In this document: positions 7,983 through 46,175 of the stretch, in pieces
Layout: each line of letters opens with the position of its first letter
How positions within the stretch are numbered: position 1 is the stretch's first letter
Translations under genes and position numbers: made by a program
Assembly (NCBI RefSeq): GCF_963921235.1
Contig: NC_086097.1
Location: 47,122,001-47,186,000, forward strand
Direction: 5' to 3'
From: Mobula hypostoma
Taxonomy: Eukaryota
Length of the DNA: 64,000 nt
Notes under the pieces: generated by a model
What the model saw: the letters and a program-made list of their open reading frames with translations, nothing else
What the model was told of the DNA's origin: nothing
Database searches by the model: none

Positions 7983-8243
7983 TACTGCTCCAGGGCAAAG
8001 AACTCCTGTGACTTCCACTCACAGTATCAGCAGCGCAACCACTCCTGACAGAATCCGTTTCCCTCGGGGAACTGCAAGTCGTAGCACTTTCCATGGTGGT
8101 CAGCTCAGAGAGCGACGAAATGCAACCTACAATGGACCACCTGCATCTCCTACACTGTCTCATGATGCCACTCCTTTGTCGCAGACACGGAGTAGAGGCT
8201 CTACAAACCTCTTTAGTAAATTGACCTCAAAACTCACAAGAAG
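7983..8243 (+). CDS. MARK3: MARK3 internal exon (261 nt) carrying the conserved aPKC site RSTFH
   Basis: tcttatag| ... |gtagga. Encodes [39 protein letters not shown]...[17 protein letters not shown](R). Confidence 0.96.
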
Positions 8244-13681: not shown

Positions 13682-13708
13682 AAACATGTCTTTCAGGTTT
13701 TCCAAAAG
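13682..13708 (+). CDS. MARK3: MARK3 27-nt microexon (R)NMSFRFSK(R)
   Basis: Long T tract then tttag|AAACATGTCTTTCAGGTTTTCCAAAAG|gtagga, phase 2/2. Matches the human MARK3 NMSFRFIKR cassette as recalled. Confidence 0.9.
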
Positions 13709-23544: not shown

Positions 23545-24066
23545 GGACGATGCTGAGGGTGTTCTACGAGTCTGTGGTGGCCAGTGCTATCATGTTTGCT
23601 GTTGTGTGCAAAGCAGGCTGAGGGTAGCAGACACCAACAGAATCAACAAACTTATTCGTAAGGCCAGTGATGTTGTGGGGATGGAACTGGACTCTCTCAC
23701 GGTGGTGTCTGAAAAGAGGATGCTGTCAAAGTTGCATGCCATCTTGGTCAATGTCTCCCATCCACTACATAATGTACTGGGTGGGCACAGGAGTACATTC
23801 AGCCAGAGACTCATTCCTCCAAGATGCAGCACAGAGCATCATAGGAAGTCATTCCTGCCTGTGGCCATCAAACTTTACAACTCCTCCCCTGGAGGGTCAG
23901 ATATCCTAAGCCAATAGACTGGTCCTGGATTTATTTCATAATTTACTGGCATAATTTACATATTACTATTTAACTATTTATGGTTCTATTACTATTTATT
24001 ATTTATGGTGCAACTGTAATGAAAACCAATTTCCCCCTGGGATCAATAAAGTATGACTATGACTAT
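23545..24066 (+). mobile_element. Rex-type LINE 3' end
   Basis: DTNRINKLIRKASDVVG...SFLPVAIKLYN; tail gatcaataaag(tatgac)n. Confidence 0.8.
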
Positions 24067-24109
24067 TTGGCTTTACTCTTAACTACTCTTTATTGGATGC
24101 TGTCAAGCT

Positions 24110-24930
24110 AATTATCCCATCAACTTACGGTTACGGATCCCACAACCCACCTGGGTTGTAGGGGTGCAGATGATGAACGCTGCACTAGTTGCCTTCATCT
24201 CTCATGGTTGTGGACAAGAGCCTGAGTTGTGGCAAAGCTCTCTCTGGTCCACTCTGCAATGTTGTCTGTCTATTTCTTCCTCTGTCTGCCCCTTTTCATT
24301 TTTCCCTGAAGAATGGTCTTTGAGAGTCCACTTGATCTTGTTATGTGGCCATACCATCTCAGTTTCCTCTTCTTTACTGTGAACGGTGGATCTTTATAGT
24401 GTCTCATGTGCTGGGTGATGGTTCTTTGTACTTCATCATTTGAGACATGATCTGTATAGGGGATACCAAGGAGCCTTCTGAAGCATCTCATTTCTACTGC
24501 CTGGATCTTATTTTGCAGTTCTGCTGTCAAAGTCCATGATTCACATGCATAGAAGAAGACGGAGAGCACAAGTGCATACGGGAGTTTCAACTTCATCCGA
24601 GAGAGATGTTATTGTATCACCAGATTGGTTTTAGATTAACCAACATTGCTATTGTTTGAGCTGACCTTGGAAGGACTTCAGACTCTGATCCTTCCTAGTT
24701 GATGATGGAGCCAAGATACTTGAACTGATTGACAGTCTCTAGTTCTTGTCCACTGACTAGGATTTTTGTCATGATTAGCTCCTCACTATTTCTCATCAGT
24801 TGGGTTTTCTCTGTGCTAATCTCCATGACATATCTGGTAGATGTATTGTCTGGATGGTTTACGAGGCGGGCCAATTCATCCTCACTTCCTGCCAGCCCAT
24901 CAATGTCATCGGCGAGCCTGAGGTTGGTTA
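24110..24930 (-). mobile_element. RTE-clade LINE fragment
   Basis: YACESWTL...IQAVEMRCFRRLLGIPYTDHVSN...KRKLRWYGHITRSSGLSKTILQG. Confidence 0.85.
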
Positions 24931-25069
24931 TACAAAACTCCCATCAACTGTTATCTAACAATTTGCAAATTGCCTCTTTTGGGTTCCTGTTCAGTGAAAC
25001 TTAGCAGTAAGTCTTGAGACCCATCTCTTTTAAACTCTTTCTTCAAGTCCTGGCTCCTGTTCAGTGAAA

Positions 25070-26012
25070 CTCACCAGGATGTGTGCTTATCCCACTGCTC
25101 TACTCTCTTTACACCCATGACTGTGCGACTAGGCAGAGCTCAAATGGCATCTATAAATTTGCTGATATTACAACTACTGTTACTACAATTACAACAGAGT
25201 TTCGGATGGTGACAGAAGTGTGTTCAGGCGCAAGATACATCAGCTAGTTGAGTGATGTCGCAACATCCGTGCACTCAACGTCAGAACTGATTGTGGACTT
25301 CAGAGAGGGTTAGGACAAGGGAACACACACCAGTCCTCATAGGGCAATCAGAAGTGGAAAGAATGAGGAATTTCAAGTTCCTGGGTTTCAATATCTCTGA
25401 GGATCTAACCTGGATCCAACATATTGATCTGGCTACAAAGAAGGCATGACAGCGGCTATATTTTGGAGTTTTGGTCTGTCGCCAAAGACGCTCGCAAATT
25501 TTTACGGATGTACCATAGAGAGCATTCTAAATGGCTGCATCACCATCTGGTAGGGGGGTGTGGAGGGCAACTACTGCATAGGGTTGAAATAAGCTGCAGA
25601 TAGTTGTAAACATAGTCAGCTCCATTATGGGAGCTATCTTTCATTGTAACCAGGACATCTTCAAGGAGCGATACCTGACAAAGACAGTGTCCATTATTAA
25701 GGATCCCCATCACTCAGGTCATGCTTTGTTCTCATTGCTACCATCAGGAAGAAGGTACAGAAGCCTGAAGGCACAGCCTTAATGATTAAAGAAGAGCTGC
25801 TTCTCCTCTGCCATCTGATTTCTGAATGGACATTAAACCCATGAGCATGACTTCACTACTTTTTTATTTCTGTTTTTGCAGTACTTATTTACTGTAACTG
25901 TATATAATATTTATTTCAGGGTTTTTTTCCTCTATTCTGTATTGCGTTGTACTGCTGCTGCAAAGACAGCAAATTTCACAACATATGCTGGTGATATTAA
26001 ATCTGATTCTGA
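25070..26012 (+). mobile_element. Rex/Babar-type LINE 3' part
   Basis: Similar to 28511-30078 in the opposite orientation; tail attaaatctgattctga. Confidence 0.85.
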
Positions 26013-27084
26013 CGTCCCTGGGGGTGGGGGGGGGGCTGCTCATGCTCTGCTGTGTCTAATGTTTCCTAGCCCATGCTGTGCTATATCCAGTGCTTTCTGC
26101 CATTTCATGATTGAGTATTCTTTGTGTTTCCTCCTGTTAGCCATAAATGTATGTAACATTATTCACAATGTATGTACTGGGGCGACAGAATTTTTGGTCT
26201 GATCTATTTGTTGCAAGATACCTTAGATCTGGTCATTGTTTGTGTTGCAGCCAAGTTGGCACTTCATAGATTCAGCTAATGTAACTCCTGCATACCCTTC
26301 TGCAGTCTTCATCCCCAGACTTGATAGAAATAATAGTGAGTGCTATGCTGGACCATGAGCTTGTAGATTATGGCTGTTTGCTGTATTTTGCTGTTGCTGA
26401 AGGTCTGTAATGCCTTGTATATTCCCTGAATTAAGATCTCTTAATTATAGTCGCACACAACATAATGGTGTCCTTGCTGTGAAGTAGAGGCTTTGTCTCC
26501 ACAAGTGCTATGCAGTGATTAATTTTACTAATACTATCAAATACAGATTGGATCCACCATAGGTCAATTGATAAGAGCAAAGACAAATGATTGTTCACAT
26601 TCCACAATTTGATTCAATCACCCACTGTTATGGTTACAACCTAGTGACTAAGGCCTATAGAACATGGTGAACTCCGTGCTGGTGGTATTCACTTTGGGTA
26701 TCGAAAACACTACCCAGTTGCATATTTTGTGCCTTTGCTAGTTTGTTGGTACTTCGAAGTTTTGTTCAGTGTGGTGGCGCACTCGATTCATAAGCTAAAG
26801 AAGGAATGTAGGTGATGGGTGATTTCCTTGGCTATGTTTCACCTGATACCATTAGATTTAATAGGGTACGAAGTTGATACTGAGGGCTTACAGGTCTTCT
26901 TTCTTCCACGCAAGTGCATTGCAACCACCTCTGGCGAATCTATCCTGTCAGTAAGGTGGGAGGCACCCAGGCATTATGAGGAATGTGTCCAACATTTCGT
27001 TTCTAAGGATACACTGTGTCTGGCTGTTACTTGACTAGTATGTTTATATTCCCATGCCCCAACATTTGAGGTCTTTGCAAGATT

Positions 27085-27965
27085 AACTAGTTATGATTGG
27101 ATGCAAAAGTAGGTGGCATGATAGTAAATTCATTGACGATGCCAACATTGGTTGTGTCGTTGACAGTGGAGAAGGTTGCCTTAGGTTACAGCAGGGTTTA
27201 GAGAATTACAGGTAGTATTTAACTCAGACAAGTGCAAAGTAATTTTGCCTGACATACAAAGTGAATGACAGAGTCCTTGTCAGTGCCGTTGAACAGAGAG
27301 ACCTTGGGATAGAAGTACATACTGTAACTCTTGAAAGTGACGACACAAGCAACTGGGTGGTGAAGAAGGTGAATCACACCCTTGTTTTCATTAGACAAGG
27401 CACTGAGTTCAAGAGTTAAGTGCTATGTTACAGTTTACAAACTGTTGGTTAGGCTGCACCTGGATCATGTGCAGTTCTGGTTGCTACACTATAGAAAAGA
27501 TGTGATTAAGTTAGAGAAGGCACAGAAAAGATTTATAAGGAATTTGCCTGAATTAGAGGAACTTGACTGGCAATATTAGAGTCCAAGTCTTTCTCTCCTG
27601 CCGAGAAGTGACATGATAGAGATAAATAAAATTATAGGCATAGATGAAATAAATAGCTAGAGACTGTTGCCCATAGTAATAGTGTCAACAATGAGAAGGC
27701 AATGGTGGAAGATGAGAGGGAGGAATTTTAAATTGGATTTGAATTGTACACTTCACTCAGTAGTTGAAATCTAGAAGGAGCTACCAGAGGAGATGGAGGC
27801 AGGACCAGCAAACAACATTTAAGAGGCATCAGTATAGGTATTTGAGCAAGAGGGATTGAATTAATAAAAGAAAGTGGGATTAGTATGGATAGACATGATG
27901 GGTAACATAGACATGGTGTACTGAAGATTCTGTTTCTGTGCTGTACAACATGGTATTCTAGAACT
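27085..27965 (+). mobile_element. Decayed CR1 3' part
   Basis: YKLLVRLHLDHVQFW...RKDVIKLEKAQKRFIR. Confidence 0.75.
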
Positions 27966-28510
27966 GTCCTGTCTAAGTTCATTGCCAGACGATCTATCAG
28001 ATATTATTCTTTCGCTATTTCAATATTTACGCTGAAGTTGAGTGGCTAGCAAGGCCACTTCGGAAGACATTTAAGGGTCAACCATATTGGTGTCTCTGTA
28101 GTCACTAATAGACTGAACCCGGTAAAAATGGAAGATTTATTCCCCTGAAGGATATTTGTGGACCATGTATAGCTTGTTGCAACAATTCAACAGTTTTGAG
28201 GTCATCATTTTCAATCATTAGATTTTTTTTTGTTTGTCCAGTCCTCTGGATGAAACCACCTTCTCACCACTGCATCCTTTAATTCAGTGTTTTAATATAA
28301 TTCTAGTATCACTGTAACCTGTCAGTTTTCAAAGGCTAACTTGTTTGATATTATTTTGAGATAGACTCCATTTGTCCTCTTTTGTGTTTAAATCAAGCCT
28401 CACATGAGTATGCTTGCCTTCAAACGTATAGCAAGTGACTTATATGAAACACTTGAGAGTGCTAACCATTTTCTTGTCAGAGTAGCAAAAGATGAACAAC
28501 AAAGGCAGAC

Positions 28511-30078
28511 ATCAGAATCAGTTTTATTATCACTGGCATGTGACATGAAATTTGTTAACTTAGCAGCAGCAGTTCAATGCAATACATAATCTAGCAGAGA
28601 GAAAAAAAACATAATAATAAACAAGTAAATCAATTTTGTATATTGAATAGATTATTAAAAATGTGCAAAAACAGAAATACTATATATTAAAAAAAGCGAG
28701 GTAGTGTCCAAAGCTTCAAAGTCCATTCAGGAATCAGATGGCAGATTGGAGGAAGCTGTTCCTGAATCACCGAGTGTGTGTGCCTTCAGGCTTCTGTATC
28801 TCCTACCTGATTGTAACAGTGAGAAAAGGGCATTCCCTGGGTGCTGAAGGTCTTTAGTAATGGATGCTGCCTTTCTGAGACACCGCTCTCTAAAGATGTT
28901 CTGCGTACTTTGTAGGCTAGTGCCCAAGATGGAGCTGACTAGATTTACAACCTTCTGCAGCTTCTTTCGGTCCTGTGCAGTAGCCCCTCCATACCAGACA
29001 GTGATGCAGCCTGTCAGAATGCTCTCCACAGTACAACTATAGAAGTTTTTGAGTGTATTTGTTGACATGCCAAATCGCTTCAAACTCCTAATAAAGTATA
29101 GCCGCTGTCTTGCCTTCTTTATGACTACATCAATACGTTGGGACCAGGTTAGATCCTCAGAGATCTTGACACCCAAGAACTTGAATCTGCTCACTCTCTC
29201 CACTTCTGATCCCTCCATGAGGATTGGTAGGTGTTCCTTCGTCTTACCCTTCCTGAAGCCCAGAATCAGCTCTTTCGTCTTACTGACGTTGAGTGCCAGG
29301 TTTTTGCTGCGGCACCATTCCACTAGTTGACATATCTCACTCCTGTACCTCCTCTCATCACCACCTGAGATTCTACCAACAATGGTTGTATCATCAGCAA
29401 ATTTGTAGATGGTATTTGAGCTATCCCTAGCCACACAGTCATGTGTATACAGAGAGTAGAGCAGTGGGTTAAGCACACACCCCTGAGATGCGCCAGTGTT
29501 GATCGTCAGTGAGGAGGAGATGCTATCACCAATCCGCACAGACTGTGGTCTTCCAGTTAGGAAATCGAGGATCCAATTACAGAGGGAGGTACAGAAGCCC
29601 AGGTTCTGCAACTTCTCAATCAGAATTGTGGGAATGATGGTATTAAATGCTGAGCTATAGTTGATGAACAGCATCCTGACGTAGGTGTTTGTGTTGTGTA
29701 GGTGGTCTAAAGCTGTGTGAACAGCCATGGAGATCGCGTCTGCTGTTGACTTATTGTGACGATATGCAAATCGCAATGGGTCCAGGTCCTTGCCGAGGCA
29801 GGAGTTCAGTCTAGTCATAACCAACCTCTCAAAGCTTTTCATCACTGTGGATGTGAGTGCTACTGAGTGATAGTCATTAAGACAGCCCACATTATTCTTC
29901 TTTGGCACTGATATAATTGTTGCCCTTTTGAAGCAAGTGGGAACTTCTGCCCGTAGCAGTGAGAGGTTGAAAATGTCCTCGAATACTCTCGCTAGTTGGT
30001 TGGCACAGGTTTTCAGGGCCTTACCAGGTACCCCATCGGGACCTTCTGCCTTGCGAGGGTTCACTCTCTTTAAAGACC
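28511..30078 (-). mobile_element. Rex1/Babar-type LINE, 5'-truncated, with an uninterrupted 445-aa RT ORF (28727-30064)
   Basis: RT motifs [39 protein letters not shown]; (TCTGA)n tail. Confidence 0.93.
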
Positions 30079-30509
30079 TTGTGAACGATACATATAGTCA
30101 ATGAATTTTTTTTGAAAAATTTCATCAAATACATTAAATTTCAAGATAGTACTTCATGGTCTCTTTTTTTATATGGTCATTGTTAGAAAATAATTTCTGA
30201 AGCCAGTGTGAACAAATTAACACCAAGGAAGAAATAATGATTTTAGTAGTAGTAATTTTCTCCTGTTTTGAATTAGCGTAATAATCATGATTTGGTTTGA
30301 GTTCTGAATGAAAGACAATCGGAAAGTAATGATGTCTTGAGGGTAGCCAGGATGAGCAAACTTCGGAGATTTTTACTCAAGTCATAAATAGAGGCTGCAT
30401 TTTCAGTGATAATTGATAGGTACTGGGGAAAAAATATTTTTTCATTGTCATTACGGAATTTCATGGCTTATCATGGCCACTTGAAGACTACTGAAGAGCA
30501 TTACAGTTA

Positions 30510-31722
30510 AAAGTTCAAAGTAAAATTTATTAGCAGAGTACATGCATGTCACTACATACAACTCTGAGATTCTTTTTCCTGTAGGCATACTCAGCAAGTC
30601 TATAGCATAATAATTGTAAACAGGATCAATGAAAAATCAAGAGCATAGAAGACAACGAACTGTTGAAATGCAACTATAAATAAATAGCAATAAATAACAA
30701 GATCAAGAGACCTTAAAGTGAGATCGTTGTTTGTGGGAACATCTCAATAGATGAGTGTAATTGAGTGTCCTGGCAAAGGGTCTCAGCCCGAAACTTCAAC
30801 CGTACCTCTTCCTAGAGATGCTGCCTGGCCTGCTGCGTTCACCAGCAACTTTTATGTGTGTTGCTTGAAATTCCAGCATCTGCAGAATTCCTCGTGAGAT
30901 GAGTGTAATTATCCTCTTTTGTTCAAGAGCCTGATGGTTGTGGAGTAATAAATGTTTTTGAACCTGGTGGTGCGAGTCTTGAGGCATTTGTATCTTCTGC
31001 CTGATGGCAACAATGAGAAAAGAGCATGGCCTCGGTGAGCATGATCTTTGATAGCTGTTGCTTTCCTACGGTAACATTTCATGTAGCTGTTCTCAATGGT
31101 TGGGAAGGCTTTACCCGCTATGTACTGGGCTGAACCCACTACCTTTTGTAGGATTTTCCGTTCAAAGGCATCGGTGTTCCCATACCAGGCCAATATGCAG
31201 CCAGTTAATGTACTTTCTACTACATATCTACAGAAATGTGTCAGGTTTTTGATCTCATGCGAAATCTCTGCAGCCTTCTAAGGAAGTAGAAGTACTGTCA
31301 TTCTTTCTTTGCAATTACATCTATGTGATGGGTGCAGGACAGATTCACTGAGGAATTTAAAGTTACTGCCCCTCTTCACCTTCAATCTTCCAATGAGGAC
31401 TGGTTCATGACCTCTGGTTTCCCTTTCCTGAGGTCTACAATTAGCTCCTTGCTCCTGCAGACATTGAGTGAGAGGCTGTTGTTATGACACCACTCAGCTA
31501 AATTTTCATTCTCCCTCCTGTATGGTGATTCATCACCACCTTTGATAAGGCCGACAAAAGTGGTGTCATCAGCAAACTTGAATATGGTATTGGAGCTGTA
31601 GGTGTAAAGCAAATAGAACAGGGATCTAAGCACACACCCCTTGGTGCACCTGTACTGATGGAGATTGTGGTGGAGATGTTTTTGCCAATCTGAACTGACT
31701 GGGGTCTGCAAGAGTGAGAGCA
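30510..31722 (-). mobile_element. Rex-type LINE with a Penelope-like terminus nested at 30763-30896
   Basis: FKFADDTTFVG and HALFSLLPSGRRY; the nested insert is flanked by AGATGAGTGTAATT at 30749-30762 and 30897-30910. Confidence 0.85.
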
Positions 31723-31896
31723 TAGGTCCTCTTTGGTCTGTTGAAGTTAGATTAACAGTTATTCCTATTTACTTTTAAATTGCTTCAGTTATAGATGAAG
31801 AAATTGGATCATCAGCACATATGGTGTGCTGATTCTGTCAGACTGATTAATCTACATGTACAGTTTAATTTCTCACAACATTTTTCCTCTTCTCAG

Positions 31897-31976
31897 GGTC
31901 AGTACTGACCCATCAAAACAGCAGACTCCCAACAAATCAGTGCCCACAAATACTTCACAAAGATCAAAGACTGTTA
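31897..31976 (+). CDS. MARK3: 80-nt frameshifting cassette exon, MARK4S-exon-like: (R)VSTDPSKQQTPNKSVPTNTSQRSKTV
   Basis: Acceptor tttttcctcttctcag|, perfect donor |gtaagt, open in the incoming phase-2 frame, in non-repetitive sequence. Length and peptide resemble the MARK4S-specific exon (VTLDPSKRQNSNRCVSGASLPQGSKI, from memory). Confidence 0.82.
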
Positions 31977-33291
31977 GTAAGTCTTCAGTCTCTAAATCTT
32001 TTCTCCGCTTCTGAACAAATTTTCTTGAACACATGCAAATCCTGTATTATGTGTAGAATTCCTCTTCTCTATCAGGTTTGAGTTCAGAAATACTTTCCCC
32101 ACAGTCTATTGAATGCAGTAGTTGAAGATGAATACATTTCAACCTGGATCATTGTTTTGAATGGTACTTAAAAAGTAAATATTAGGTTTTGATATTTCAG
32201 AGTTAAATACCCTATCTAAAATCCAATTTAAGGAAAATAGTTCATATGATTGTTAAATATTGCAAAACATGGGTTTTGTGTAGTTAGTCACTCTTACTTT
32301 CAATATGTTATTTATTTACCCCATTTTACTTTAAGATTATTTGATTGATTGTGAAAGCTGATCAAAAAGGCAGGATGCTCGAGAGAACACACTGAAATAT
32401 AATTTCAGTACCATTGAGTAATTTTTTTGCATAAGATTTCATTGATAAGGATATATTTCAGGAAGTAATGAATTTTAAATGTTATTTTAGGGAGACCCAT
32501 GCTTGTTTATTGATACGAATACCTTTCTGTGGCAAAATAATGCATGTAATGTGCACGTAGTAGGTGCAATGTCTGCTTTTGTTTTCCTTGCAATGCATTG
32601 CAAAGTTGATGTGCTTGTTTCAGTATGGTGTAGAAAATCAATTAGTTGAGATTGTCAACATAAATAAATTGCAGCGTTGTTTGTACGACAATTAGCTGTT
32701 GTGAACTTGAATGTAAGACCTTCATTTATGTAAATTTTTTCAGCTTTCTTTTCAGATTTCCTTCTTTTCATTTAAGGATATTTAGGAATTATTTTAGAAT
32801 TAGTAAATAAAGACAACATACTGAAATTGATAAATTAGATGTGTTTTGCCTCAAGTTGTGTTGGCAGCGAGATTGAAATGTTAAATTACACATCACATTT
32901 ATGAAGTGAAATTTACAGATTTTTACCAAATGCCTGTCATGTGCTTTTTTTTGGAAAATGCTAATAATTGTTTGACTGAAGGAAACAACATTTTTAGCTG
33001 AACTTGTAACTAAAGATTACTTGTAATTACTGGTTACACAAATAATCACTTAAGAATAATGTTTAGTTTGCTGAAGTACAACTTCTTATTTTTAAAATTT
33101 GGGTAAAAATTGAGAACATAATTTCAACTCATAAATTTTGTGTCATTGTTCAAATCCATTGTACACATTTGCTTCATCCCATACCTGGCCAATTGCAAAT
33201 CTCATTTCTATAAAGACTTGCATTTGTGCTCCATCTTTGCATCTATAGGAAAGGTTTTACTTTACAGATGGTAAAACTGCTGGAGCAGTAA

Positions 33292-33454
33292 CAGACACAA
33301 AATGCTGGAGGGGCCCAGCAGAGCTGATGAAGGGTCTTGGCCTGAAACGTTGACTGTACTCTTTTCCATAGATGCTGCCTGGCCTGCTGAGTTCCTCCAC
33401 CATTTTGTGTAGGTTGCTTGGATTCCCAGCATCTGCAGATTTCTCGTTTATGAT
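33292..33454 (+). repeat. Penelope-like terminal fragment with a hammerhead-like core
   Basis: CTGATGA-AGGGTCTTGGCCT-GAAAC-GTT-GACTG at 33324-33356; short inverted arm; imperfect flanking repeat tggagcag(cag)taa. Confidence 0.65.
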
Positions 33455-34720
33455 TGGAGCAGCAGTAATTCCTCTTGTCAGAAAAAGACAGTTTCTCTTT
33501 CATTCTGTAAACACATAGAATTCTTGTGAAACAGACTTCGAACTATGCAGTTTTGTTATGTGTTGTTAATTTCAGAGAAAAAAAAGTTACGAAGGTCTGT
33601 ATTATTAGACAAATCCCAGGGAAGACAGCAAAATACTCTTTAATCTAGCATAGATGCCTGTAAATATTATATACTGTAGGTATCCAGTTAAATTTGAATT
33701 AATTTTACTAAGATAGTGGTTTGCTTAGATTACAATTTTGTTAGGCTCTATCTCTAGTCTAATAAATCAAAAATTTCAATATTGGAACATCAAGCTTGCA
33801 TTAACCTTTTTCATTGTTATGGCAAATCAGGTTTAAGGGTGCTTCAGTTGGAAATTTAAAACTATCCTAAGAGGTCTTTTACGATTTCAAGTTTCTAACA
33901 TACGTGTTACGCCGGGAGCTTATAAAAATAATATTGGGTTCATTAAAAATATTGCTTAGTTTTTGGTTTAGAATCTGTAACCACTGAAATCCAAACGCCA
34001 AAATAATTTAACAGTTGAATTTGGTGCGAGCATGTTGTGATCTGTTTGCATCTGTGCTCATATGTTGTACTTGGAGGAGATGATGGAGATACAACCAGAA
34101 AGAAAGCAGGAAATATAAAATATTTTGTTAAATGCTCTATCTTGAAATTCTAGAAAAACAATTTACAACCTAATATATATTAATTTGTTCATTTTTCAAC
34201 TTTAATAATCCAGCTAGATTTGCTGTTTCAGATTGATCTTCTCCAGCATTTCATTCCTGCTTACCTTAAGCAAATTAGTTATCTTAGATTGTTTACTTTT
34301 TTTGTACTACTGCTTATATGTTTCAGAGACTGTAGAAATGTTATAATATTTATAATGCCTCAGTTATGAATTGTGCAATAAGATAGATTTCTACTGCCCT
34401 ATTAGACCATTATTCTGTTAAAATAAAGTCCTGAGAATGCTGGAAATGCCAAATAAAACAAAATGCTGGAAATACTTTTTTTAAATATACAAGCACCTGC
34501 ACAGAGGAATCTAGTTAACAACTCAAGTCAATGATTTTAACTTCTCATCAGCTGACCTGAAATGTCTAAACTTTTGATTACTTCAGTTGATTTAAATTAA
34601 AGAATTCCTTATGTACCTAAATACACATAAGAAGTAACATTTATGTTGATCTAAAGACGTTACAACCTTTGTCATCTTCAGTTCTGTTCAGAATCTCTCT
34701 CATTATCCCCTTCATTACAC

Positions 34721-37176
34721 AGTTCAAATTAAATTTATTATCAAGGTACATATATGTCACCATATACAACCCTGAGATTTATTTTCCTGTGGGCACGTTT
34801 AGCAAAAGTATAGACTAGAAACCATAACAGAATCAATGAAAGATCAACCAGAATGCAGAAGACAACTGAAAATATCAATAAATTGCAATAAATAACGAGA
34901 ACATATAAACAGTCCTTAAAGTGAGATAATTGGTTGTGGGAACATTTCAATGATGGAGCAAGTGAGTGTAGTTATCTCTTTTTATTCAAGAGTCTGATGG
35001 TTGAGGGGTAGAAACTGTTCTTGAACCTGGTGGTGCATGACAAGACTGTTGTACCTTCTCCCTGATGGCAGCAGTAAGAAGAGAGCATGTCCTGGGTGGT
35101 GGTGATCTGTGATGATGGATGCTGCTTTCCTGTGACAGCATTTCATGTGTGATGTCTATAAAAGGTATTCACCTCCTTGAAAGTTTTCATGCTTTACTGT
35201 TTTACAACACTGAATCACAGTGGATTTAACTTGGCTTTTTTGATGTTAATCAACAGAAAAAGACCCTCTTACGTCAAAGTAAAAAATGATCTCTACAATG
35301 TGATCTAAATTAATTATAAATATAAAACACACAATAATTGATTGCATAAGTATTCACCCCCTTCAAGTCAGTATTTAGTAGATGCACCTTTGGCAGTAAT
35401 TACAGCCTTGGGTCTGTGTGGATAGGTCTCTATCAGCTTTGCACATCGGAATACTGCAATCTTTCCCCATTCTTCTTTACAAAACTGCACAAGCTCTTTC
35501 AGATTGCATGGGGATTGTAAGTGAACAGCCCTTTTCAAGTGCAACAACAAATTCTCAATTGGATTGAGGTCTGGGCCACTCGGGACATTAACGTTGTTGT
35601 TTTTAAGCCATTACTATGTAGTTTTGGCTTTATGCTTGGGGTCATTGTCTTGCTGGAAAACAAATCTCCCAAGTCGCAATTCCCTTGCAGACTGCATTAA
35701 ATTTTCCTCACTGATTTACTTGTATTTTCCTGCATTCATTTTACCCTCTACCTTCACAAGCTTTCCAGGGCCTGCTGTAGTGAAGCATCCCCACAGCATG
35801 ATGCAGCCACCACCATGCTTCACGGTAGAGGTGTGTGTTTTTGATGATGTGTGGTGTTTGGTTTGATGGCCAAAAAGCTCAGTTTTGATGTTATTAGACC
35901 ATAGAACCTTCTTCCAGCTGACTTCAGAGTTTCCCATATGCCTTTTGACAAACTCTAGCTGGGATTTCGTATGACTATTTTTCAACAGTAGCTTTCTCTT
36001 TGCCTCACTCCCATAACGCTGCAACTGGTGAAGTACCCGGCCAACAGTTGTTGTATGTGCTGTCTCTCCCATCTCAGCCACTGAAGCTTGTAACTCCTCC
36101 AGAGCTGTTATGGGTCTCTGGAGGCTTCCCTATCTAGTCCTCTTCTTGCACGGTCACTCAGTTTTTGAGGACGCTCTGCTCTAGGCAGATTTACAGCTGT
36201 GCCATATTCTTTCCATTTCTTGATGATTGACTTAACTGTACTCCAAGGGATATTCAGTGACTGGGATATTTTCTTGTATCCATCCCCTGACTTGTGCTTT
36301 TCAATAACCTTTTCGCAGAGTTGTTTGGAGTGTTCTTTTGTCTTCATGGTGTAGTTTTTTGCCAGGATACTGACTTACCAGCAGATAGACCTTCCAGATA
36401 CAGGTGTATTTTTCCTAAAATCAATTGAAACACCTTGACTGCACACGTGATCTCCATTTAACTAATTATGTGACTTCTAAAACCAATTGGCTGCACCATT
36501 AATGATTTGTGTCATATTAAAGGGAGTGGGTGAATACTTATGCAATCAATTATTTTGTTTTTTATTTCTAATTAATTTAGATCACTTTGCAGAGATCTGT
36601 TTTCACTTTGACATGAAAAAGTCTTTTCCTGTTGATCAGTGTCAAAAAAGCCAAATTAAATCCATTGTAATTCAATGTTGTAAAACAATAAAACATGAAA
36701 ACTTCCAAGGGGGTGTAAATACTTTTATAGACACTGTAGATGTGCTCATGTGCTGTAGAGGATGAATCCACTACCTTTTATACAATTTGCTGCTCAAAGG
36801 CATTGGTGTTTCCATTCCAGGCTGTGATGCAGCCAGTCAATGCACTTTCCATTACCCATCTATTGAAGTTTGTCAAAGTTGTGGATGTCTTCCCAAATCT
36901 CGGCAGACTCCTGAGGAAGTAGAGGTGCTGCTGTACTTTTTGTTGAAATTGCACTTGGTTCCAGGACCGACCCTCTGAACTAGTAACACTCAGGAATTTA
37001 AAACTACTAACTCCCTCCACTTCTGATCCTGCAATGAGAATCACCTTGTGGATCTCTGGTTTCCCTCTCCTGAAGTCTATAATCAATTCTTTGGTCTTGC
37101 TGACATTGAGTGTGAGGTTGTTATTGTAGCACCACTCAGCCAAATTTTGCATCATCACCACCTTTGATTTGTCCCA
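34721..37176 (-). mobile_element. Rex-type LINE split by a Tc1 insertion
   Basis: [27 protein letters not shown]...ESALTGCITAW; host sequence is continuous across 35150-36736. Confidence 0.82.
35150..36736 (-). mobile_element. Tc1-like DNA transposon, near full length, inactivated
   Basis: TIRs of about 200 bp, right end ...ATAGACACTG|TA. Transposase remnants MKTKEHSKQLCEKVIEKHKSGDGYKKIS and TVKHGGGCIMLWGCF. Confidence 0.92.
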
Positions 37177-38371
37177 CACAAAGAAAATTTATTTTCCATA
37201 ATGCACATTTTTCCTACTGCTGTTGTCAGTCCATCAGATCGTGAAACCATCATTCATTTCCTTGACTCTACCAGACCCGTATTTTAATGCTGCACTTGCT
37301 GACCTCCCAGCCTCCAACAAAATCGAGCATTTAAAATCTTGCTGTTTGTGTCATATTTCACAGTAAGTCATCACACATTTTTGCTAACATGTTACTTTCC
37401 AATTTTGTAGTGTTTCCTTTAAAGTAATTAACTGTTGGGTGTCTGTTTATTGCTTGGCTCCATCTACCATCTGCCTAATCCCAGAATTGTCTAGGCTTGA
37501 ACTCTGGGAACATGCATTTTTCCTTGCACCCTTCTCTCAACCCATTGACAAAATTTCATGAAGTACAGCAGCAGGAATGCAGAAAAATTCAATTTGACAC
37601 TTCAAATCAAATATTATTTGGATGATCATACAAATCAACTCCACCTTTTTAGAACTAAACCTCAATCCCTGATTTTCTATGTACTCAGAATACACCAATC
37701 TCTGCCTTTAAAAGTTTACATGTTTCAATCTACTAGGAAGAACCTGGTCTACCAAAAATCTACAACCTGTACCTGCACATTAACATTCTATGATTCATAT
37801 AAAGTAGTCCTACCTCTGTGAACTAATATTTTGTAGTTTCTCACTTTTTAAAAAAATCTTTTCTGTTACACTGTACCAATAAACTACATAAATTAAATTT
37901 TCTTTATATAATATTTCCTTAGTCAACTATTACTAACTCATAAGCTGTCTAAAGAGATTGCCAAGACCAAAAATCTTAATTCTAAAAGGAAGATGCTAAA
38001 ACAGAAGGTACTAGAAATTCCTTGTAAGTTAGGCAGTAGCTGTGGAGAGAGAAGTAGAAGTTAAGTTTCAGGTTGATGATTATTGGAAATTGGGGAAAAC
38101 TGAATAAACAGGAATGGATTAAGTTGCAGAGAAAATGGAAGGATGGGAAGAACAATGTACATCATGGAGTGGAGACCAAGAAATCAATGGATGACTTGAT
38201 AGAGGGTGATGAAGCCACGTTATTATTTCCTAGCATTTGCCTTTATTCAAAGTTACCAGCAACTGCTGTTTTCTATATCTTTCAGTTCTATTGTGGTGTT
38301 CTTTTTCCTCTTCTGTTTACAATTTCTCCAAGAAATTGGTTGTATTTAACAAAACTTGCCCATTCATTCAT

Positions 38372-38475
38372 TCTCTCTCTCTCTCTCTCCTCTCTCTCCT
38401 CTCTCTCTCTCTCTTCCTCTCCTCTCCCCTCCGCTCTGCTCCTCGCCCCCCTCCCCCCTCCCCTCTCCCCTCCCC
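38372..38475. repeat. (CT)n / C-rich low-complexity tract
   Basis: Pyrimidine run read directly; lies among decayed Penelope-like termini (~37985-39435). Confidence 0.85.
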
Positions 38476-39750
38476 AAGTAAGTCATCCATTGTCCCTTGG
38501 TCTCCAGCCTGTCACAGAAATTCCCTTTTCATCTCATCCTCTCCTTTCTCTGCAACTTAAAACATGGCCATCTTCCAACATTCCAAGTTTTGATCGATAG
38601 TCATTGAACTCCAGTGTTAAATCTTTATTTCTGCACAGATGCTGTGTATGACCCATATTTTTCTAGCATTCTGTATTTCAGTATGCCTTTACAGCCTCTC
38701 TGGTCATCTCACAGCTTCCTTTTCCACCAGCTTTAGGCTCATGGTATGAAGAGTAGAGGAGGTATGAGACAGGAAAGTAGGTGATAGGGGTACTGAGAGG
38801 GGTGCAGAATGATAGACAGATGGAGCGAGGTGGGGAGAGGAGAATGGAGTTGGGAGGTAAGCAGGTGGTTGACAGGTGGAAGCAGATGGGATTGGGGAGG
38901 GAGGCAGACGCATACAGGTGGGGGAAGGGGAAGGAGAAGAAGATGATGGGAAATTCAAGGTAAATTAATTTATTATTCTCACATGTATCAATATACCGTG
39001 AAAACATTTTGTTTTGCATTTCAGTACACTGAGATAGGACAAAGTAAAAATAATGGGGAAAAAGGTGCAACAGTTAGAGGGAAAATGCAATGCAAGCAGA
39101 CAATAAGGAGCAAGACCTTGGTGAGATAAAGATTGTGAGGTCAAGAGTCCATCTGGATATATTAGGGACTATTCGGTTGTCCGGGTTAAAAGGCCGCAAG
39201 AGCAGCTGATAATAGGAACCATTAGTGGAGAGGTGAAAGGCAGATGGAGCCAATTGCAAGGTAGAATACAGAACATAGAGGAAGCTGGAATTTGAGTTCC
39301 TCCACCAGGTTGCATTTTTCTTTTGCTCCAGTTTTCAGCATTTGCAGTCTCTTTGGCTCTTTGTTTCTATTTTGCCTGATACGGTCAGACCTGCTGAGAG
39401 TTTCCAGCATTTTCTGCTTTTATTTCAGATTTCCAACAACTATAATTTTTTTGATTTTCATTTTCTTTCTAGTTTTGTGATATCATAGAAATGTTTGCAA
39501 TAAGCACTTAATTGATTTTCTCTGCATCTGTCAGAAACAAACAGTTTTGCTACTAAAATATAGTTTTGAAAAGTTTCATATTCCAGTGTGATTAAGTAGA
39601 TTTGTCTTGGTCATATGAAAGTGTATATTTTTCTGTCTGCATTCCATATGCGCTTCCTTGGTGTAGTCTTCGTGTGCAATAGACTTAAGTTACACAGTTT
39701 TAAGAATTCTCTTCTTCTTTTACTCGTGCTTTCGGATTGCTCTCATTGAG

Positions 39751-39795
39751 GGTCCCAACTGAACCTGAGAGAAACGGGAGATTTGAGGGCTCAAG
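39751..39795 (+). CDS. MARK3: MARK3 45-nt cassette exon (R)VPTEPERNGRFEGS(S); alternative frame (R)SQLNLRETGDLRAQ
   Basis: Pyrimidine tract, cattgag| ... |gtgaga. Resembles human MARK3 LPTEYERNGRYEGSS. Confidence 0.9.
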
Positions 39796-40237
39796 GTGAG
39801 AAGACTATATATATATCTAGCAAATTTACCACAGTGCAACAAAAAGTTGCCATTCAAAATGCATGTGCCTCAATTCATTGATAAACCTTTTAGAAATTAT
39901 TGGTATCTTTTATCAAATTGTTGAAATGTTGACTGATTTGTAAAGCATGGAAAGTTGAAATATGAATTAGAAACAAGGCTTTGACTTTAAAATTCTAAAT
40001 AGCACTGAAATCCAATGTATTAATTAAATCTAATTAAATAAGGAAATTCAATTGAATAAAAATTGCTTCTATCCAGTTGTTCAAAGGATCCTACATTGTA
40101 GTAATTTCTGGGTAGAAAGACCCATTGGCCAAGTCAATGCATAAAAAGAAATGTGCAGTTGTTAAAATGGTGTTGTTCTTATTGTAGTTGTAGCTCTAGT
40201 AGTAGTGGCAAGATGGCATAGGTGTAAAGCAAGCAGT

Positions 40238-43200
40238 TAGAGCCATAGAAAACTGCAACACAGAAACAGGCCCATCCAGTTCTTGCCAAACCGTTAATCT
40301 GCTTAGTCCTATCGACCTGCATGTGAACCATAGCCCTCCAAACCCCTCTCATATTTGTACATATCCAGATTCTTTGAAACGTTGAAATCAAAATTGCATC
40401 CACCACTTGCACTGGCAGCTCGTTCTACACTCTCACCACCCTCTGAGTGAAGTGTTTCCCTTAAACATTTCACCTTTCACCCTTAACCAATGACCTCACC
40501 CATCCTCAGTGAGCATTGTATTTACTCTGCCTATATTCTTCATAATACTGGGTACTTCTATCAAATCACCCCTCAGTCTTCTACGTTATAAGGAATAAAT
40601 TCCTAACCTATTTAACCTTTACTTCTAACTCAGGTTCATCAAACCCGGCAACATCCTTGAAAATTTTCTATGTACTCTTTCAACCTTATTTACATCTTTC
40701 CTGTAGGTAGGTGACCAAAACTGCACACTATACTCCATATTAGGCCTCACCGATGTCTTGTACAACTTCAACTTAATATTCCATCTCATATATGAAGGCC
40801 AGTATGCCAAAAGCTTTCTTTATGACCCTATCTACCTGTGGCACCACTTTCAACAAATTATGGACCTGTATTTCTAGATCCCTTTGTTCTACTGCACTTC
40901 TCAGTGCCCTACCATTCACTATTAAAGACCTACCTAGCTGGTCCTACTGAAGTGCAACACCTCGCGCTTGTCTGCGTTAAATTCCACCTACCATTTTTCA
41001 GCCCATTTTCCAGCTAATGCACATCCCACTGCAAGCTGGGATGGTCTTTCTCACGGTCTACTACACCCCCAATCTTGGAGTCATCCACAAAGTTGCTGAT
41101 CCAATTAATCACATTGTTGCCCAGATGGTTGATGTGGATGACAAACGACAACAAAACCAGCACCAATCTCTGTAGCACTCCACTACTCACAGGCTTCCAG
41201 TCAATGAGGCAACCATCTACTTCTACTCTTTGGCTTCTACTGCAAAGCCGATGTCTAATCCAATTTACTACCTCATCTTGAATGCCAAGAGACTGTACCT
41301 CTTGACTGACCTATAATGCAGGACCTTGTCAGATGCCTGGCTAAAGTCCATGTACACAATCTTTCATCAACTTTCTTGGTACCGTCCTCAAAAATGCTAT
41401 AAGGTTGGTTAGACGTGACCTGCCATGCTGACTATCCCTTATCAATCCCTGTCTATTCAAATACTCAACGTCTGGTGTCTTAGAATACCTTCCAATGACT
41501 CTCCCACTATGATGTCAGGCTCACCAGCCTATAATTGTCTGGTTTATTCTTGGAGCCTTTCTTAAACAGTAGAACATTCATCCTCCAGTACTTCACCTGT
41601 CGCTAAAGATGACATAAATATCTTTGCTAGGATCCCTACAATTTCTGTATTTGTCTTCCGCAGGGTCTAAGGGAGCACCTTGTCAGGCCTTGAAAATTTG
41701 TCCACCCTGATTTGCCTCAGGACAGCAAACACCTCCTCCTCTGTAATCTGTGTAGGGTCCATGACCTCGCTGCTGCTTTGCCTCACTTCTATAGACTTTA
41801 TGTCTGTCTCCGGAGTAAATACAGATGCAAAAAATCCATTTTAGATCTCCCCCATCTCTTTTGGCTACAAACATAGATAACCACTTTGATTTTCCAGAGG
41901 ACCAATTTTGTCCCTTGCTTTTAACATATCAGTAGAAGCCCTTAGGATTCTCCTTCACATTGTATGCTAGAGCAAACTTATGCCTTCTTTTAGCCCTCCT
42001 GATATCTTTCGTTAGTACTCTCTTGCATTTCTAATATTTCTCAAGTACCTCATTTATTCCTATCTGCTATGCACCTCCTATTCTTTTTCAAACCAGGGCC
42101 TCAATATCTCTCAAACCATGGTTCCCAAATCTGTTATCCTTGCCTTTTATTCTGACTGACAAACCTTCATACTCTCAAAATTTCACTTTTGAAGGCCTCC
42201 CACTTACCAAGTACACCTTTACAAGAAAACAGCCTGTCCCAATCCACATTTGCTAGATCCTTTCTTTTTTCTTTTTCAATCTTTGTATTAGTTTCACAAA
42301 ATATAAACATGACATAGTAGTAATACAAAGTTATTGGGAATACATTGTTATAATTAACATGAGTAGTTATAGAACTAAAAAATTGATTGACGAAACTCTC
42401 AATCATAAAGGATATCAATGAATAATACAGACCAAAGAGAAATAACTAGATCCTTTCTGATACAATCAGAATTGGCCTTTCTCCAGTTTAGAATCTCAAC
42501 CTGAGGACCAAACTTATCCTTTTCCATGATTACCTTGAAACTGATGGCATTATGATCGCTAGATGCAAAGTGTTCTTCTCGACAAACTTCTGTCGCCTGC
42601 CCTGTCTTATTCCGTACTAGGAGCTCTAGTATTGCACACTCTGTCATTGGGGCTTTTATGTACTGATTAAGGAAACTTTCCTGAATGAATTTGCCTAACT
42701 CTTAACCCATTGGGTTCTTTTGCAGTATGTGGAAAGTTAAAATTATCTATAGCCCCATTAATGTGGTCGTATCTTTTTTATTCCTCAGTTCCACCCATTA
42801 AGCCTCACTATAGACAAGTATTCCAGTCTGTCCTGACCGAGCATTGCTGTGACGTTTTCCCTGACTAGTAATGCCACCTCTCCTTTCCTAATCCCTCCCT
42901 CTCTATCATGTCTAACACAATGGAACCACAGAACACTGAGCTGCCAGTCCTGCCCCTCCTGCAACCAAGTCTCACTAATGGCCACAATATCATATTTCTT
43001 TGTGTTGATCCATGCCCTGAGCCCATCTGCCTTTTCTACAATACTTCGTGCATTGAACTATATGCAGCTCAGAACATTAGTGCCCCCATGCTCAACCTTC
43101 AGCTTTTTGCTTCTGAACTTTGTCTGAGGTCTTATCAACACCTGTCTCCACAATCACTCTACTATCAGTTCTGGCATTCTGCTTCCCAGCCCCCTGTAAT

Positions 43201-43290
43201 GTTAGTTTAACCTCCCTTCTCCCCCCTCCCCACCATGCAGTATTAGCAAACCTTCCCATTAGAAAATTAGTTCTCCTCTAGTTTAGTGCA
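40238..43290 (-). mobile_element. Long decayed CR1 LINE ORF2
   Basis: AISETWLQEGQDWQL, FASSDHNAISFKV and LYKTSVRPNMEYSVQFWSP; CR1 3' end near 40245. Confidence 0.88.
42266..42445 (-). mobile_element. 180-bp L1/Tx1-like 3' end nested in CR1
   Basis: Minus-strand end ...AATACAAAGATTGAAAAAGAAAAA; 13-bp TSD CTAGATCCTTTCT at 42253-42265 and 42446-42458. Confidence 0.7.
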
Positions 43291-43341
43291 GACTAGTATG
43301 TCCTAACAATACAAGATGGTGCACGCGTGTAAAACAAACAA

Positions 43342-43346
<5 letters not shown>

Positions 43347-43411
<65 letters not shown>

Positions 43412-43627: not shown

Positions 43628-43685
<58 letters not shown>

Positions 43686-43735
43686 ACTCTCACTCTCTCT
43701 CACTCTCTCTCTCTCACTCTCACTCTCTCTCTCTC
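43347..43735. repeat. Compound microsatellite (CT)n-(CACTCTCT)n-(CT)n
   Basis: Read directly. Confidence 0.97.
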
Positions 43736-45829: not shown

Positions 45830-46175
45830 TCGTAATGTATCTGGGGATCAAAAAGATGAAATCAAAGAAGCAAAACCTCGTTCACTTAGGTTTACCTGGA
45901 GTATGAAAACGACCAGTTCCATGGATCCCAGTGACATGATGAGGGAGATCAGAAAGGTTCTTGATGCAAATAATTGTGATTATGAACAGCGTGAACGGTT
46001 CTTGCTCTTCTGTGTTCACGGCGATGGACATGCAGAAAATCTTGTCCAGTGGGAGATGGAGGTTTGCAAGCTGCCGAGACTGTCACTTAATGGAGTTCGA
46101 TTTAAGCGAATATCAGGAACATCCATAGCTTTCAAAAACATTGCTTCCAAAATTGCCAATGAATTAAGGCTGTAA
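45830..46175 (+). CDS. MARK3: MARK3 terminal coding exon, KA1 domain
   Basis: ttctgcag| then [114 protein letters not shown]. The VHGDGHAEN motif is MARK3-type. Confidence 0.97.

What the first reader, a model, noticed from the sequence alone, without database searches (positions are those of the whole stretch)
31897..31976. Hidden 80-nt frameshift exon gives MARK3 a MARK4S-type, KA1-less isoform
Seen: an 80-nt segment with a strong acceptor (tttttcctcttctcag) and a perfect donor (gtaagt), in unique sequence between the 27-nt and 45-nt MARK3 cassettes. It encodes (R)VSTDPSKQQTPNKSVPTNTSQRSKTV and shifts the frame. Spliced onward it gives [40 protein letters not shown] with TGA at 45904-45906. 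The stop is in the last exon, so NMD is not expected. Established (from memory): human MARK4 makes L and S isoforms through an 80-nt exon, and MARK4S ends VTLDPSKRQNSNRCVSGASLPQGSKI-RSQTNLRESGDLRSQ-VAIYLGIKRKPPPGCSDSPGV. The exon length, 26-codon count and motifs match, but every other exon here is MARK3-type. Inference: the S/L switch predates the MARK3/MARK4 duplication and survives in this lineage's MARK3, producing a 'MARK3S' without the membrane-binding, autoinhibitory KA1 domain. I know this switch only as a MARK4 feature, but cannot exclude that such isoforms are already in automated annotations.
Basis: partly seen in the sequence, partly recalled or inferred. Interest (0 to 1): 0.92.

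Follow-up and report, generated by a model that had tools for sequence, protein, structure and literature searches.

The report
Known KA1-less MARK3 exon, unannotated here
The 80-base exon is real and matches the frameshifting exon that gives MARK4 and other fishes' MARK3 a short form without the KA1 domain, but this is already in gene annotations and a 2026 preprint, and its use in this ray could not be tested.

Summary
Window 31897-31976 is an 80-nt segment with an AG acceptor and a GTAAGT donor, inside the 3' half of a MARK3 gene. Splicing it in shifts the frame by +2 and ends the protein at TGA 45904-45906 in the last coding exon, upstream of the KA1 domain.

It is not a chance ORF.
- A profile built only from other species' annotated MARK3 short-form exons finds it at E 3e-11, with the next hit at 0.24.
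- In the 3.48-Gb genome its DNA matches only itself and an 83-nt exon at the same place in MARK4.
- Between MARK3 and MARK4 the shifted frame is better conserved than the normal frame across the 45-nt exon and the start of the last exon.

It is not new. NCBI models with this exon exist for MARK3 in 8 other species: skate, sharks, chimaera, coelacanth and sturgeon. A 2026 preprint lists MARK1/MARK3/MARK4 as sharing a dual-coding region preserved across chordates.

Left open: the closest rays' models (X1-X5) all keep KA1. No RNA data could be reached. The short-form tail carries 6 lineage-specific changes against 0 in a skate, so use in this lineage is unproven.

The parts
7983..8243 (+). Constitutive MARK3 exon ending ...KLTSKLTR(R), leaving AG as the first two bases of a split Arg codon. 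It is one of two possible upstream splice partners of the 80-nt exon.
   Evidence: 100% identical to P0017 residues 531-618. Acceptor tag at 7980-7982, donor GT at 8244.
13682..13708 (+). 27-nt in-frame cassette (NMSFRFSK-type) that also ends in AG. It is the alternative upstream partner.
   Evidence: Chimaera X13 (P0026) and Mustelus X14 (P0027) join this cassette directly to the short-form exon.
31897..31976 (+). The 80-nt alternative exon (1 + 26 codons + 1), which shifts the frame by +2. It is the ortholog of the annotated MARK3 short-form exon of other fishes and the paralog of the 83-nt MARK4 exon.
   Evidence: Profile from 8 other species gives E 3e-11. Genome-wide DNA match only to the MARK4 locus, 75% identity, E 7e-8. 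Alignment.
31883..31896 (+). Polypyrimidine tract and AG acceptor, lying within the stretch that still aligns to the MARK4 copy.
   Evidence: The one search match covers query 24-127, which is window 31883-31986.
31977..31986 (+). Donor GTAAGTCTTC, identical over 10 of 10 bases to the donor of the MARK4 short-form exon.
39751..39795 (+). 45-nt exon read in two frames. The normal frame is the VPTEPERNGRFEGS-type; the shifted frame is the SQLNLRETGDLRAQ-type and follows the 80-nt exon.
   Evidence: Against MARK4 the shifted frame differs at 3 of 14 residues and the normal frame at 7 of 14. The shifted-frame peptide is identical in skate, shark and chimaera MARK3 short forms.
45830..45906 (+). 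Start of the last coding exon, read in the shifted frame (V-MYLGIKK...PGV, then TGA at 45904-45906).
   Evidence: Profile of 7 other species' tails gives E 1.4e-15. Over the first 22 nt versus MARK4 there are 3 synonymous and 1 non-synonymous changes in the shifted frame, against 1 and 4 in the normal frame.
45830..46175 (+). The same last coding exon in the normal frame. It encodes the linker plus the KA1 domain and the normal stop at 46173-46175. This part is lost from the protein when the 80-nt exon is included.
   Evidence: Pfam KA1 (PF02149) E 3.1e-21 at residues 71-114 of this exon's translation.

Best explanation
The segment is a genuine, ancient alternative exon of MARK3. It is the ortholog of the exon NCBI already annotates in MARK3 of skate, sharks, chimaera, coelacanth and sturgeon, and the paralog of the MARK4 exon (human exon 16) that separates MARK4S from MARK4L.

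Mechanism: inclusion after exon 7983-8243, or after the 27-nt cassette, adds 26 codons and shifts the frame by +2. The 45-nt exon, if included, and the first 75 nt of the last exon are then read in a second, conserved frame, and translation stops at TGA 45904-45906. The product would be about 684 aa (617 shared residues plus a 67-residue tail). It keeps the kinase domain, UBA domain and spacer but has no KA1 domain.

Published work shows that KA1 both autoinhibits MARK/PAR-1 kinases and binds acidic phospholipids. The short form is therefore inferred to be free of that autoinhibition and of KA1-driven membrane targeting. In its place it carries a conserved tail motif (RSQ-NLRE-GDLR-Q / V-MYLGIKK) whose partner is unknown. 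By analogy with MARK4, inclusion is probably enriched in neurons.

Shown here: the anatomy, the homology, the two-frame conservation and the loss of KA1. Inferred: actual splicing in this species, tissue pattern and biochemical effect.
For: - Exact anatomy and reading frames.
- A profile built from 8 other species' annotated MARK3 short-form exons, excluding the window and its MARK4, hits 31898-31975 at E 3e-11 among 3847 six-frame pieces of the window; the next best is 0.24. A profile of 7 species' tails hits 45829-45903 at E 1.4e-15.
- In the whole 3.48-Gb genome, 141 nt around the exon match 2 places: itself and C40:37970290-37970395 in MARK4. That place is an 83-nt exon in the equivalent intron with the same phase and the same donor GTTA|GTAAGTCTTC. 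It is part of NCBI's MARK4-like isoform X3, P0004.
- Two-frame signature, MARK3 versus MARK4. In the 45-nt exon the shifted frame has 5 synonymous and 4 non-synonymous differences (3 of 14 residues differ); the normal frame has 1 and 8 (7 of 14 differ). In the first 22 nt of the last exon the shifted frame has 3 and 1; the normal frame has 1 and 4.
- Of 13 proteins fetched from the 120 listed hits, 7 carry the complete short-form tail and 2 more carry the exon with another ending, spanning 8 species.
- Pfam finds KA1 in the long form P0017 and in the last exon's normal frame, but not in the short forms P0063, P0019 and P0004.
- Literature (passages read): MARK4S keeps exon 16 and MARK4L skips it, which moves the stop (PMC9355243). 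PTBP1 drives exon 16 exclusion (PMC10835012). MARK4S predominates in brain (PMC10390814 and PMC12027440). KA1 autoinhibits the kinase and binds anionic phospholipids (PMC6451319). MARK1/MARK3/MARK4 share a dual-coding region preserved across chordates (preprint 10.64898/2026.05.28.727796).
Against: - There is no transcript evidence for this species. No RNA holder was listed, and the four runs laid behave as DNA because their contigs run through the introns.
- All MARK3a models seen for the closest annotated rays keep KA1 where I checked them. The four sequences I read (M. hypostoma X1, X4 and X5, Hemitrygon X4) end in the KA1 domain. The other nine carry PF02149 in the search table. The set is Mobula hypostoma X1-X5, M. 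birostris X1-X4 and Hemitrygon akajei X1-X4. The same annotation does include the MARK4 short form.
- The short-form tail has 6 changes unique to the window's lineage in 67 columns, against 0 for the skate. The constitutive part has 3 against 4 in 509 columns (Fisher p 1.3e-4 for tail versus constitutive; binomial p 0.031 for 6 versus 0; lineage-by-region 2x2 p 0.07). This fits relaxed constraint.
- A word-based search with the exon found no protein. That is explained by only one shared 5-residue word with the other species' exons, but it also means no model with this exact exon is a cluster representative.
Confidence: 0.8

Rival explanations
1. The exon is truly homologous but is a relic in this lineage. 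In myliobatiform rays MARK3 no longer includes it, or does so only at trace level. The short/long switch is left to MARK4, and the MARK3 short-form tail drifts under relaxed constraint.
For: All 13 MARK3a models seen for three rays keep KA1, by sequence for the four I read and by the table's PF02149 entry for the other nine. Short forms are modelled in 8 other species, and the same ray annotation models the MARK4 short form. The tail has 6 lineage-unique changes against 0 in the skate, with 3 against 4 in 509 constitutive columns. Three of the six lie in the last exon and are silent in the normal frame, because the normal-frame protein there is identical to the skate's.
Against: The splice sites, the open frame, the length class (2 mod 3) and the shifted-frame stop are all intact. 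The 45-nt exon's shifted-frame peptide is identical to that of other cartilaginous fishes. Six changes is a small number, and the lineage-by-region test gives p 0.07. Missing Gnomon models may only reflect which tissues were sequenced.
Confidence: 0.18
2. It is a 'poison' exon whose role is to lower MARK3 output through nonsense-mediated decay, not to make a protein.
For: Its length is not a multiple of three and it brings in an early stop.
Against: The stop at 45904-45906 lies in the same exon as the normal stop, so no exon junction follows it in the coding region. The shifted-frame peptide is conserved across paralogs and species, and better than the normal frame in places, which a pure decay switch would not need. 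3'UTR introns were not examined.
Confidence: 0.02
3. It is a chance open frame with splice-like ends in an intron.
For: None beyond the fact that AG...GT pairs are common in introns.
Against: Profile hit at E 3e-11 with the next best at 0.24. Single genome-wide paralogous match, in the MARK4 short-form exon. Syntenic position and phase.
Confidence: 0.005

Closest known systems
MARK4 exon 16 and the MARK4S/MARK4L switch (human; also NCBI MARK4-like isoform X3 of Mobula hypostoma, XP_062916422.1 = P0004)
   Same: Same intron, after the exon ending KLTSKLTRR. Same phase and a length of 2 mod 3. 15 of 27 residues identical, with an identical donor. The same downstream exons are read in the shifted frame, with shared motifs ([20 protein letters not shown]). 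The stop lies early in the last exon and KA1 is lost.
   Different: It sits in MARK3, not MARK4. It is 80 nt against 83 nt. The last 13-14 tail residues differ, because there the normal frame (the start of the KA1 region) is the conserved one: 9 of 14 shifted-frame residues differ. The human sequence was not fetched, so the comparison is with the ray MARK4.
NCBI-modelled MARK3/MARK3a short-form isoforms of other fishes: Amblyraja radiata X10 (XP_032882983.1), Callorhinchus milii X13 (XP_042193834.1), Mustelus asterias X14, Hemiscyllium ocellatum X6, Stegostoma tigrinum X17 (XP_059505101.1), Chiloscyllium plagiosum X14 (XP_043553435.1), Latimeria chalumnae X7 (XP_014348402.1)
   Same: The same gene, the same exon and the same tail. 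The exon is 20 of 26 identical to the skate's. The 45-nt shifted-frame peptide is identical. The tail is 21 of 25 identical to the skate's. Forms with and without the 27-nt cassette and with and without the 45-nt exon are all modelled.
   Different: No such model was seen for the window's closest annotated species. The window's copy has 6 changes at positions where skate, sharks and chimaera agree.
Dual-coding region of the MARK family in the preprint 'More than 100 dual coding regions have evidence for selection constraints in both reading frames' (10.64898/2026.05.28.727796; passages read)
   Same: It states that MARK1, MARK3 and MARK4 carry a dual-coding region preserved across chordates and acquired before the gene duplications. 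It also states that both frames of the MARK4 region have dN/dS below 1 and that the alternative isoform is brain-specific.
   Different: It works from human gene sets. The text I read gives no coordinates or sequences, and its supplements are closed, so I could not confirm that it means this same exon. In this genome I found no such exon in MARK1.

Membership tests
MARK short/long (MARK4S-type) frameshifting alternative exon | Lies in the intron that follows the exon ending KLTSKLTRR, entered in the same codon phase (AG|G) | tested here: met
   In the window the order is 8243, then 31897-31976, then 39751. In MARK4 (gene-oriented coordinates) it is 37191, then 42618-42700, then 56826.
MARK short/long (MARK4S-type) frameshifting alternative exon | Length of 2 mod 3, so the downstream exons are read in the +2 frame | tested here: met
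   80 nt here and 83 nt in MARK4. The other species' exon peptides are 26 or 27 residues long.
MARK short/long (MARK4S-type) frameshifting alternative exon | Sequence homology of the exon itself | tested here: met
   Profile from 8 other species gives E 3e-11. tblastn to the MARK4 exon gives 55.6% identity over 27 residues, E 9e-4. Genome-wide blastn finds only the MARK4 locus, E 7e-8.
MARK short/long (MARK4S-type) frameshifting alternative exon | Conserved shifted-frame tail and a stop early in the last exon, before KA1 | tested here: met
   (tail profile E 1.4e-15). KA1 lies downstream of the stop in the normal frame.
MARK short/long (MARK4S-type) frameshifting alternative exon | Transcripts that include the exon exist in this organism | not testable with these tools
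   One search listed no RNA holder. The four runs laid are DNA-like.
MARK3 orthology of the host gene | Exons match annotated MARK3 rather than MARK1, MARK2 or MARK4, and the other three paralogs lie elsewhere in the genome | tested here: met
   Four window exon matches (5209-5424, 6382-6483, 7981-8244, 45828-46172) are 100% identical to P0017, NCBI 'MARK3a isoform X1'. Four KA1 loci were found, on C1, C22, C82 and C40. The paralog labels MARK1, MARK2 and MARK4 are partly mine, from recalled human motifs and from P0004's NCBI name. No gene tree was built.
NMD-targeting poison exon | The premature stop lies more than about 50 nt upstream of a later exon junction | tested here: not met
   The stop at 45904-45906 is in the exon that also holds the normal stop at 46173-46175. 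3'UTR introns were not examined.

The most novel reading that the evidence does not exclude
In myliobatiform rays the MARK3 copy of the ancient short/long switch is being lost or retuned while the MARK4 copy is kept. This would be a live case of two paralogs dividing up a 450-million-year-old dual-coding module. The signs are a short-form tail changing about 15 times faster per site than the rest of the protein in this lineage only, and the absence of the isoform from three ray annotations.
Probability: 0.2. Interest if true: 0.4.

Novelty: already known. Interest (0 to 1): 0.25.

Why it matters
For genome annotation, this ray's MARK3 gene has an unmodelled but structurally intact exon that should be added as a candidate isoform.

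For biology, the result independently confirms, from one cartilaginous-fish genome, that the KA1-less short form belongs to MARK3 as well as MARK4. It also shows that the replacement tail is conserved in its own reading frame, in places better than the normal frame. The tail is therefore likely a functional module and not just a truncation.

In the paper library I searched, only one item mentions MARK3 together with dual coding, and none matched MARK3 + KA1 + alternative splicing + isoform. A KA1-less MARK3 therefore appears uncharacterised at the bench.

None of this is a new kind of thing. The exon, the isoform and its ancient origin are already in public annotations and in a preprint.

Tried and rejected
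- RNA evidence: the look-up of sequencing runs listed no RNA holder.
The part beside it (23400-43300) was then laid. Runs X1-X4 gave contigs that run continuously across the exon and its introns (for example 31682-32010 and 31725-31945). They are therefore DNA-like and say nothing about splicing.
- Search with the exon plus 7 flanking codons on each side found 3 candidates and no hit. The exon shares only one 5-residue word with the other species' exons, so this blank is uninformative.
- Search with the MARK4 shifted-frame ORF found only P0004.
- Counts of PTB-type pyrimidine motifs (TCTT, TTCT, TCTC) and of (U)GCAUG around the exon do not differ from those around the other exons of the gene, so they give no support for or against PTB or RBFOX control.
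- AlphaFold2 on a shark short form with an 8-sequence alignment gave mean pLDDT 31.8 and pTM 0.19. That is too poor to say anything about the tail, and no fold search was run.
- A profile search for a short-form exon in 60 kb upstream of the MARK1-like and MARK2-like last exons found nothing; the best E values were 0.76 and 5.4.
- Earlier scan notes: none on this window. A word search returned only an unrelated arthropod Tau note.
- Rejected readings: chance ORF and NMD poison exon.

Full report
WHAT IS THERE

The window carries the 3' part of a MARK3 gene on the + strand. Mapping the closest annotated protein onto the window gives 100% identical exon matches at 5209-5424, 6382-6483, 7981-8244 and 45828-46172. 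That protein is P0017, NCBI 'MARK3a isoform X1' of Mobula hypostoma.

Reading the junctions directly gives this anatomy:
- a constitutive exon at 7983-8243, ending ...KLTSKLTR with AG left over;
- a 27-nt cassette at 13682-13708, also ending in AG;
- a 45-nt exon at 39751-39795;
- the last coding exon from 45830, with the normal stop at 46173-46175.

The segment is 80 nt. It is preceded by tttttcctcttctcag and followed by gtaagt. The KA1 domain (Pfam PF02149, E 3.1e-21) lies in the normal frame of the same last exon, downstream of that stop. The one nuance is that the exon side of the donor (TTA) is not consensus.

IS IT MORE THAN CHANCE?

Yes, on three independent lines.

1. I built a profile only from the short-form exon peptides of 8 other species' NCBI MARK3 models, leaving out the window and this genome's MARK4. 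I ran it over all 3847 six-frame stop-to-stop pieces of the window. The piece 31847-32011 scored E 3e-11 at exactly residues 18-43, which is 31898-31975. The next best piece scored 0.24. A profile of 7 species' last-exon tails hit 45799-45903 at E 1.4e-15.

2. A DNA search of the whole 3.48-Gb assembly with 141 nt around the segment found 2 places: itself and C40:37970290-37970395 (75% identity, E 7e-8).

3. That second place is an 83-nt exon of the MARK4 paralog. It lies between the MARK4 equivalents of the 8243 exon and the 45-nt exon, in the same phase, and it has the same donor GTTA|GTAAGTCTTC. It belongs to NCBI's MARK4-like isoform X3 (P0004, 684 aa). That protein runs from ...KLTSKLTRR into the exon peptide, then the shifted-frame 45-nt peptide, then a V-MYLGIKK tail.

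TWO READING FRAMES UNDER CONSTRAINT

I compared the MARK3 and MARK4 DNA of this one genome.

| Region | Shifted frame, syn / non-syn | Shifted frame, residues differing | Normal frame, syn / non-syn | Normal frame, residues differing |
|---|---|---|---|---|
| 45-nt exon | 5 / 4 | 3 of 14 | 1 / 8 | 7 of 14 |
| Last exon, first 22 nt | 3 / 1 | 1 of 6 | 1 / 4 | 4 of 7 |
| Last exon, remaining 43 nt up to the TGA | 3 / 10 | 9 of 14 | 8 / 5 | 4 of 14 |

The balance reverses in the last stretch because the start of the KA1 region takes over there. The RSQ-NLRE-GDLR-Q / V-MYLGIKK core, however, has been kept by selection on the shifted frame in both paralogs.

The MARK1-like (C22) and MARK2-like (C82) loci show neither a short-form exon in the 60 kb upstream of their last exons nor this shifted-frame motif.

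IS IT NEW?

No.

A search with the constitutive exon returned 4098 proteins at E <= 1e-5 among 4283 candidates, of which 120 were listed. From that list I fetched 13, chosen mainly because the table showed no KA1 family for them:
- 7 carry the complete short-form tail: Amblyraja radiata X10, Callorhinchus milii X13, Mustelus asterias X14, Hemiscyllium ocellatum X6 (which skips the 45-nt exon), Stegostoma tigrinum X17, Chiloscyllium plagiosum X14 and Latimeria chalumnae X7.
- 2 carry the exon followed by another ending: Latimeria X8 and Acipenser ruthenus X12.
- 1 (Acipenser X13) has neither the exon nor KA1.
- 3 are long forms.

Four further listed proteins without a KA1 entry (P0104, P0108, P0109, P0111) were not fetched. 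The alignment shows the window's predicted tail lining up residue for residue with these models. Pfam confirms that the short forms lack KA1 and the long form has it.

In print, a 2026 bioRxiv preprint (10.64898/2026.05.28.727796; I read the passages found by term search, not the whole text or the supplements) makes these statements:
- MARK1, MARK3 and MARK4 share a dual-coding region preserved across chordates and gained before the duplications.
- MARK4 has dN/dS below 1 in both frames.
- The MARK4 alternative isoform is brain-specific.

It is the only item in the library that holds both 'MARK3' and 'dual coding'. A search for MARK3 + KA1 + alternative splicing + isoform found no paper.

WHAT REMAINS OPEN FOR THIS GENOME

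All models seen for the closest annotated rays keep KA1. The four sequences I read (M. hypostoma X1, X4 and X5, Hemitrygon X4) end in the KA1 domain. The other nine carry PF02149 in the table. Those models are Mobula hypostoma MARK3a X1-X5, M. birostris X1-X4 and Hemitrygon akajei X1-X4. The clusters mix isoforms, so a hidden member cannot be fully excluded. I checked the one multi-member cluster among the 100%-identical hits, and it held only an N-terminal variant, P0145.

No RNA data could be reached.

I also ran a relative-rate count with three outgroups (two sharks and a chimaera).

| Region | Aligned columns | Changes unique to the window's lineage | Changes unique to the skate |
|---|---|---|---|
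| Constitutive part | 509 | 3 | 4 |
| Short-form tail | 67 | 6 | 0 |

The tests give Fisher p 1.3e-4 for tail versus constitutive in the window's lineage, binomial p 0.031 for 6 versus 0, and p 0.07 for the lineage-by-region 2x2. Three of the six changes lie in the last exon and are silent in the normal frame. This is suggestive, not conclusive, evidence that constraint on the MARK3 short-form tail is relaxed or altered in this lineage. Against decay, the splice sites, frame, length class and stop are all intact.

HOW IT MOST LIKELY WORKS

Shown:
- Inclusion shifts the frame.
- Two downstream exons are dual-coding.
- The product ends before KA1.

Taken from the literature (passages read):
- In MARK4 the exon-containing form is the short form and the skipped form is the long form (PMC9355243).
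- PTBP1 promotes skipping (PMC10835012).
- The short form predominates in brain and neurons (PMC10390814 and PMC12027440).
- KA1 binds the kinase domain to autoinhibit it and binds anionic phospholipids for membrane targeting (PMC6451319).

Inferred: a MARK3 short form would be a kinase without KA1-mediated autoinhibition and membrane recruitment, carrying instead a conserved basic tail of unknown partner, probably enriched in neurons. Motif counts around the exon gave no independent support for PTB or RBFOX control. A structure prediction of a shark short form was too poor to use.

VERDICT

The homology and the ancient origin are supported. Expression in this lineage is untested and somewhat in doubt. 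The feature is already known from other species' annotations and a preprint, so interest is low to moderate. Its practical value is a missing isoform in this species' gene model. Its only possibly new angle is lineage-specific relaxation of the MARK3 copy.

Noticed in passing
window 6899-7093 (+): A 195-nt in-frame cassette exon (acceptor cacag, donor gtaagc) encoding an LTEMSAC...ADNFNP-type Ser/Ala/Thr-rich insert. It matches residues 422-487 of Amblyraja radiata MARK3 X4 (P0025) at 91% identity. It is absent from the closest species' isoform X1 (P0017).
   Followed up: partly
L011-L016 (C22, MARK1-like) and L017-L022 (C82, MARK2-like): Neither paralog has a detectable short-form exon in the 60 kb upstream of its last exon, and the shifted frame of their last exons lacks the MYLGIKK motif. 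The 2026 preprint nevertheless lists MARK1 among the family members with the ancient dual-coding region, so MARK1 may have lost it in this lineage, or the preprint may mean a different region.
   Followed up: partly
window 43333-43767: A long imperfect CT-rich simple repeat (it reads [14 protein letters not shown] in two frames) in the intron between the 45-nt exon and the last exon. It blocked read-laying across the last exon.
   Followed up: no
window 17389-17838, 49421-50124 and 60582-61456 (+), among others: The introns and the downstream region hold open frames that look, by my own recall of such motifs, like remnants of reverse-transcriptase and Tc1/mariner-type transposase genes. Bins such as 30704-31367 and 23400-24063 reach summed contig depths of 26,000 to 74,000 in the DNA-like runs, which indicates high-copy interspersed repeats.
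   Followed up: no
window 31682-32142, runs X1-X4: Contigs from two other coded organisms cover the exon and its flanking introns with 0 to 5 differences per 150-330 nt. Very close relatives therefore carry the same exon, but this says nothing about constraint.
   Followed up: no
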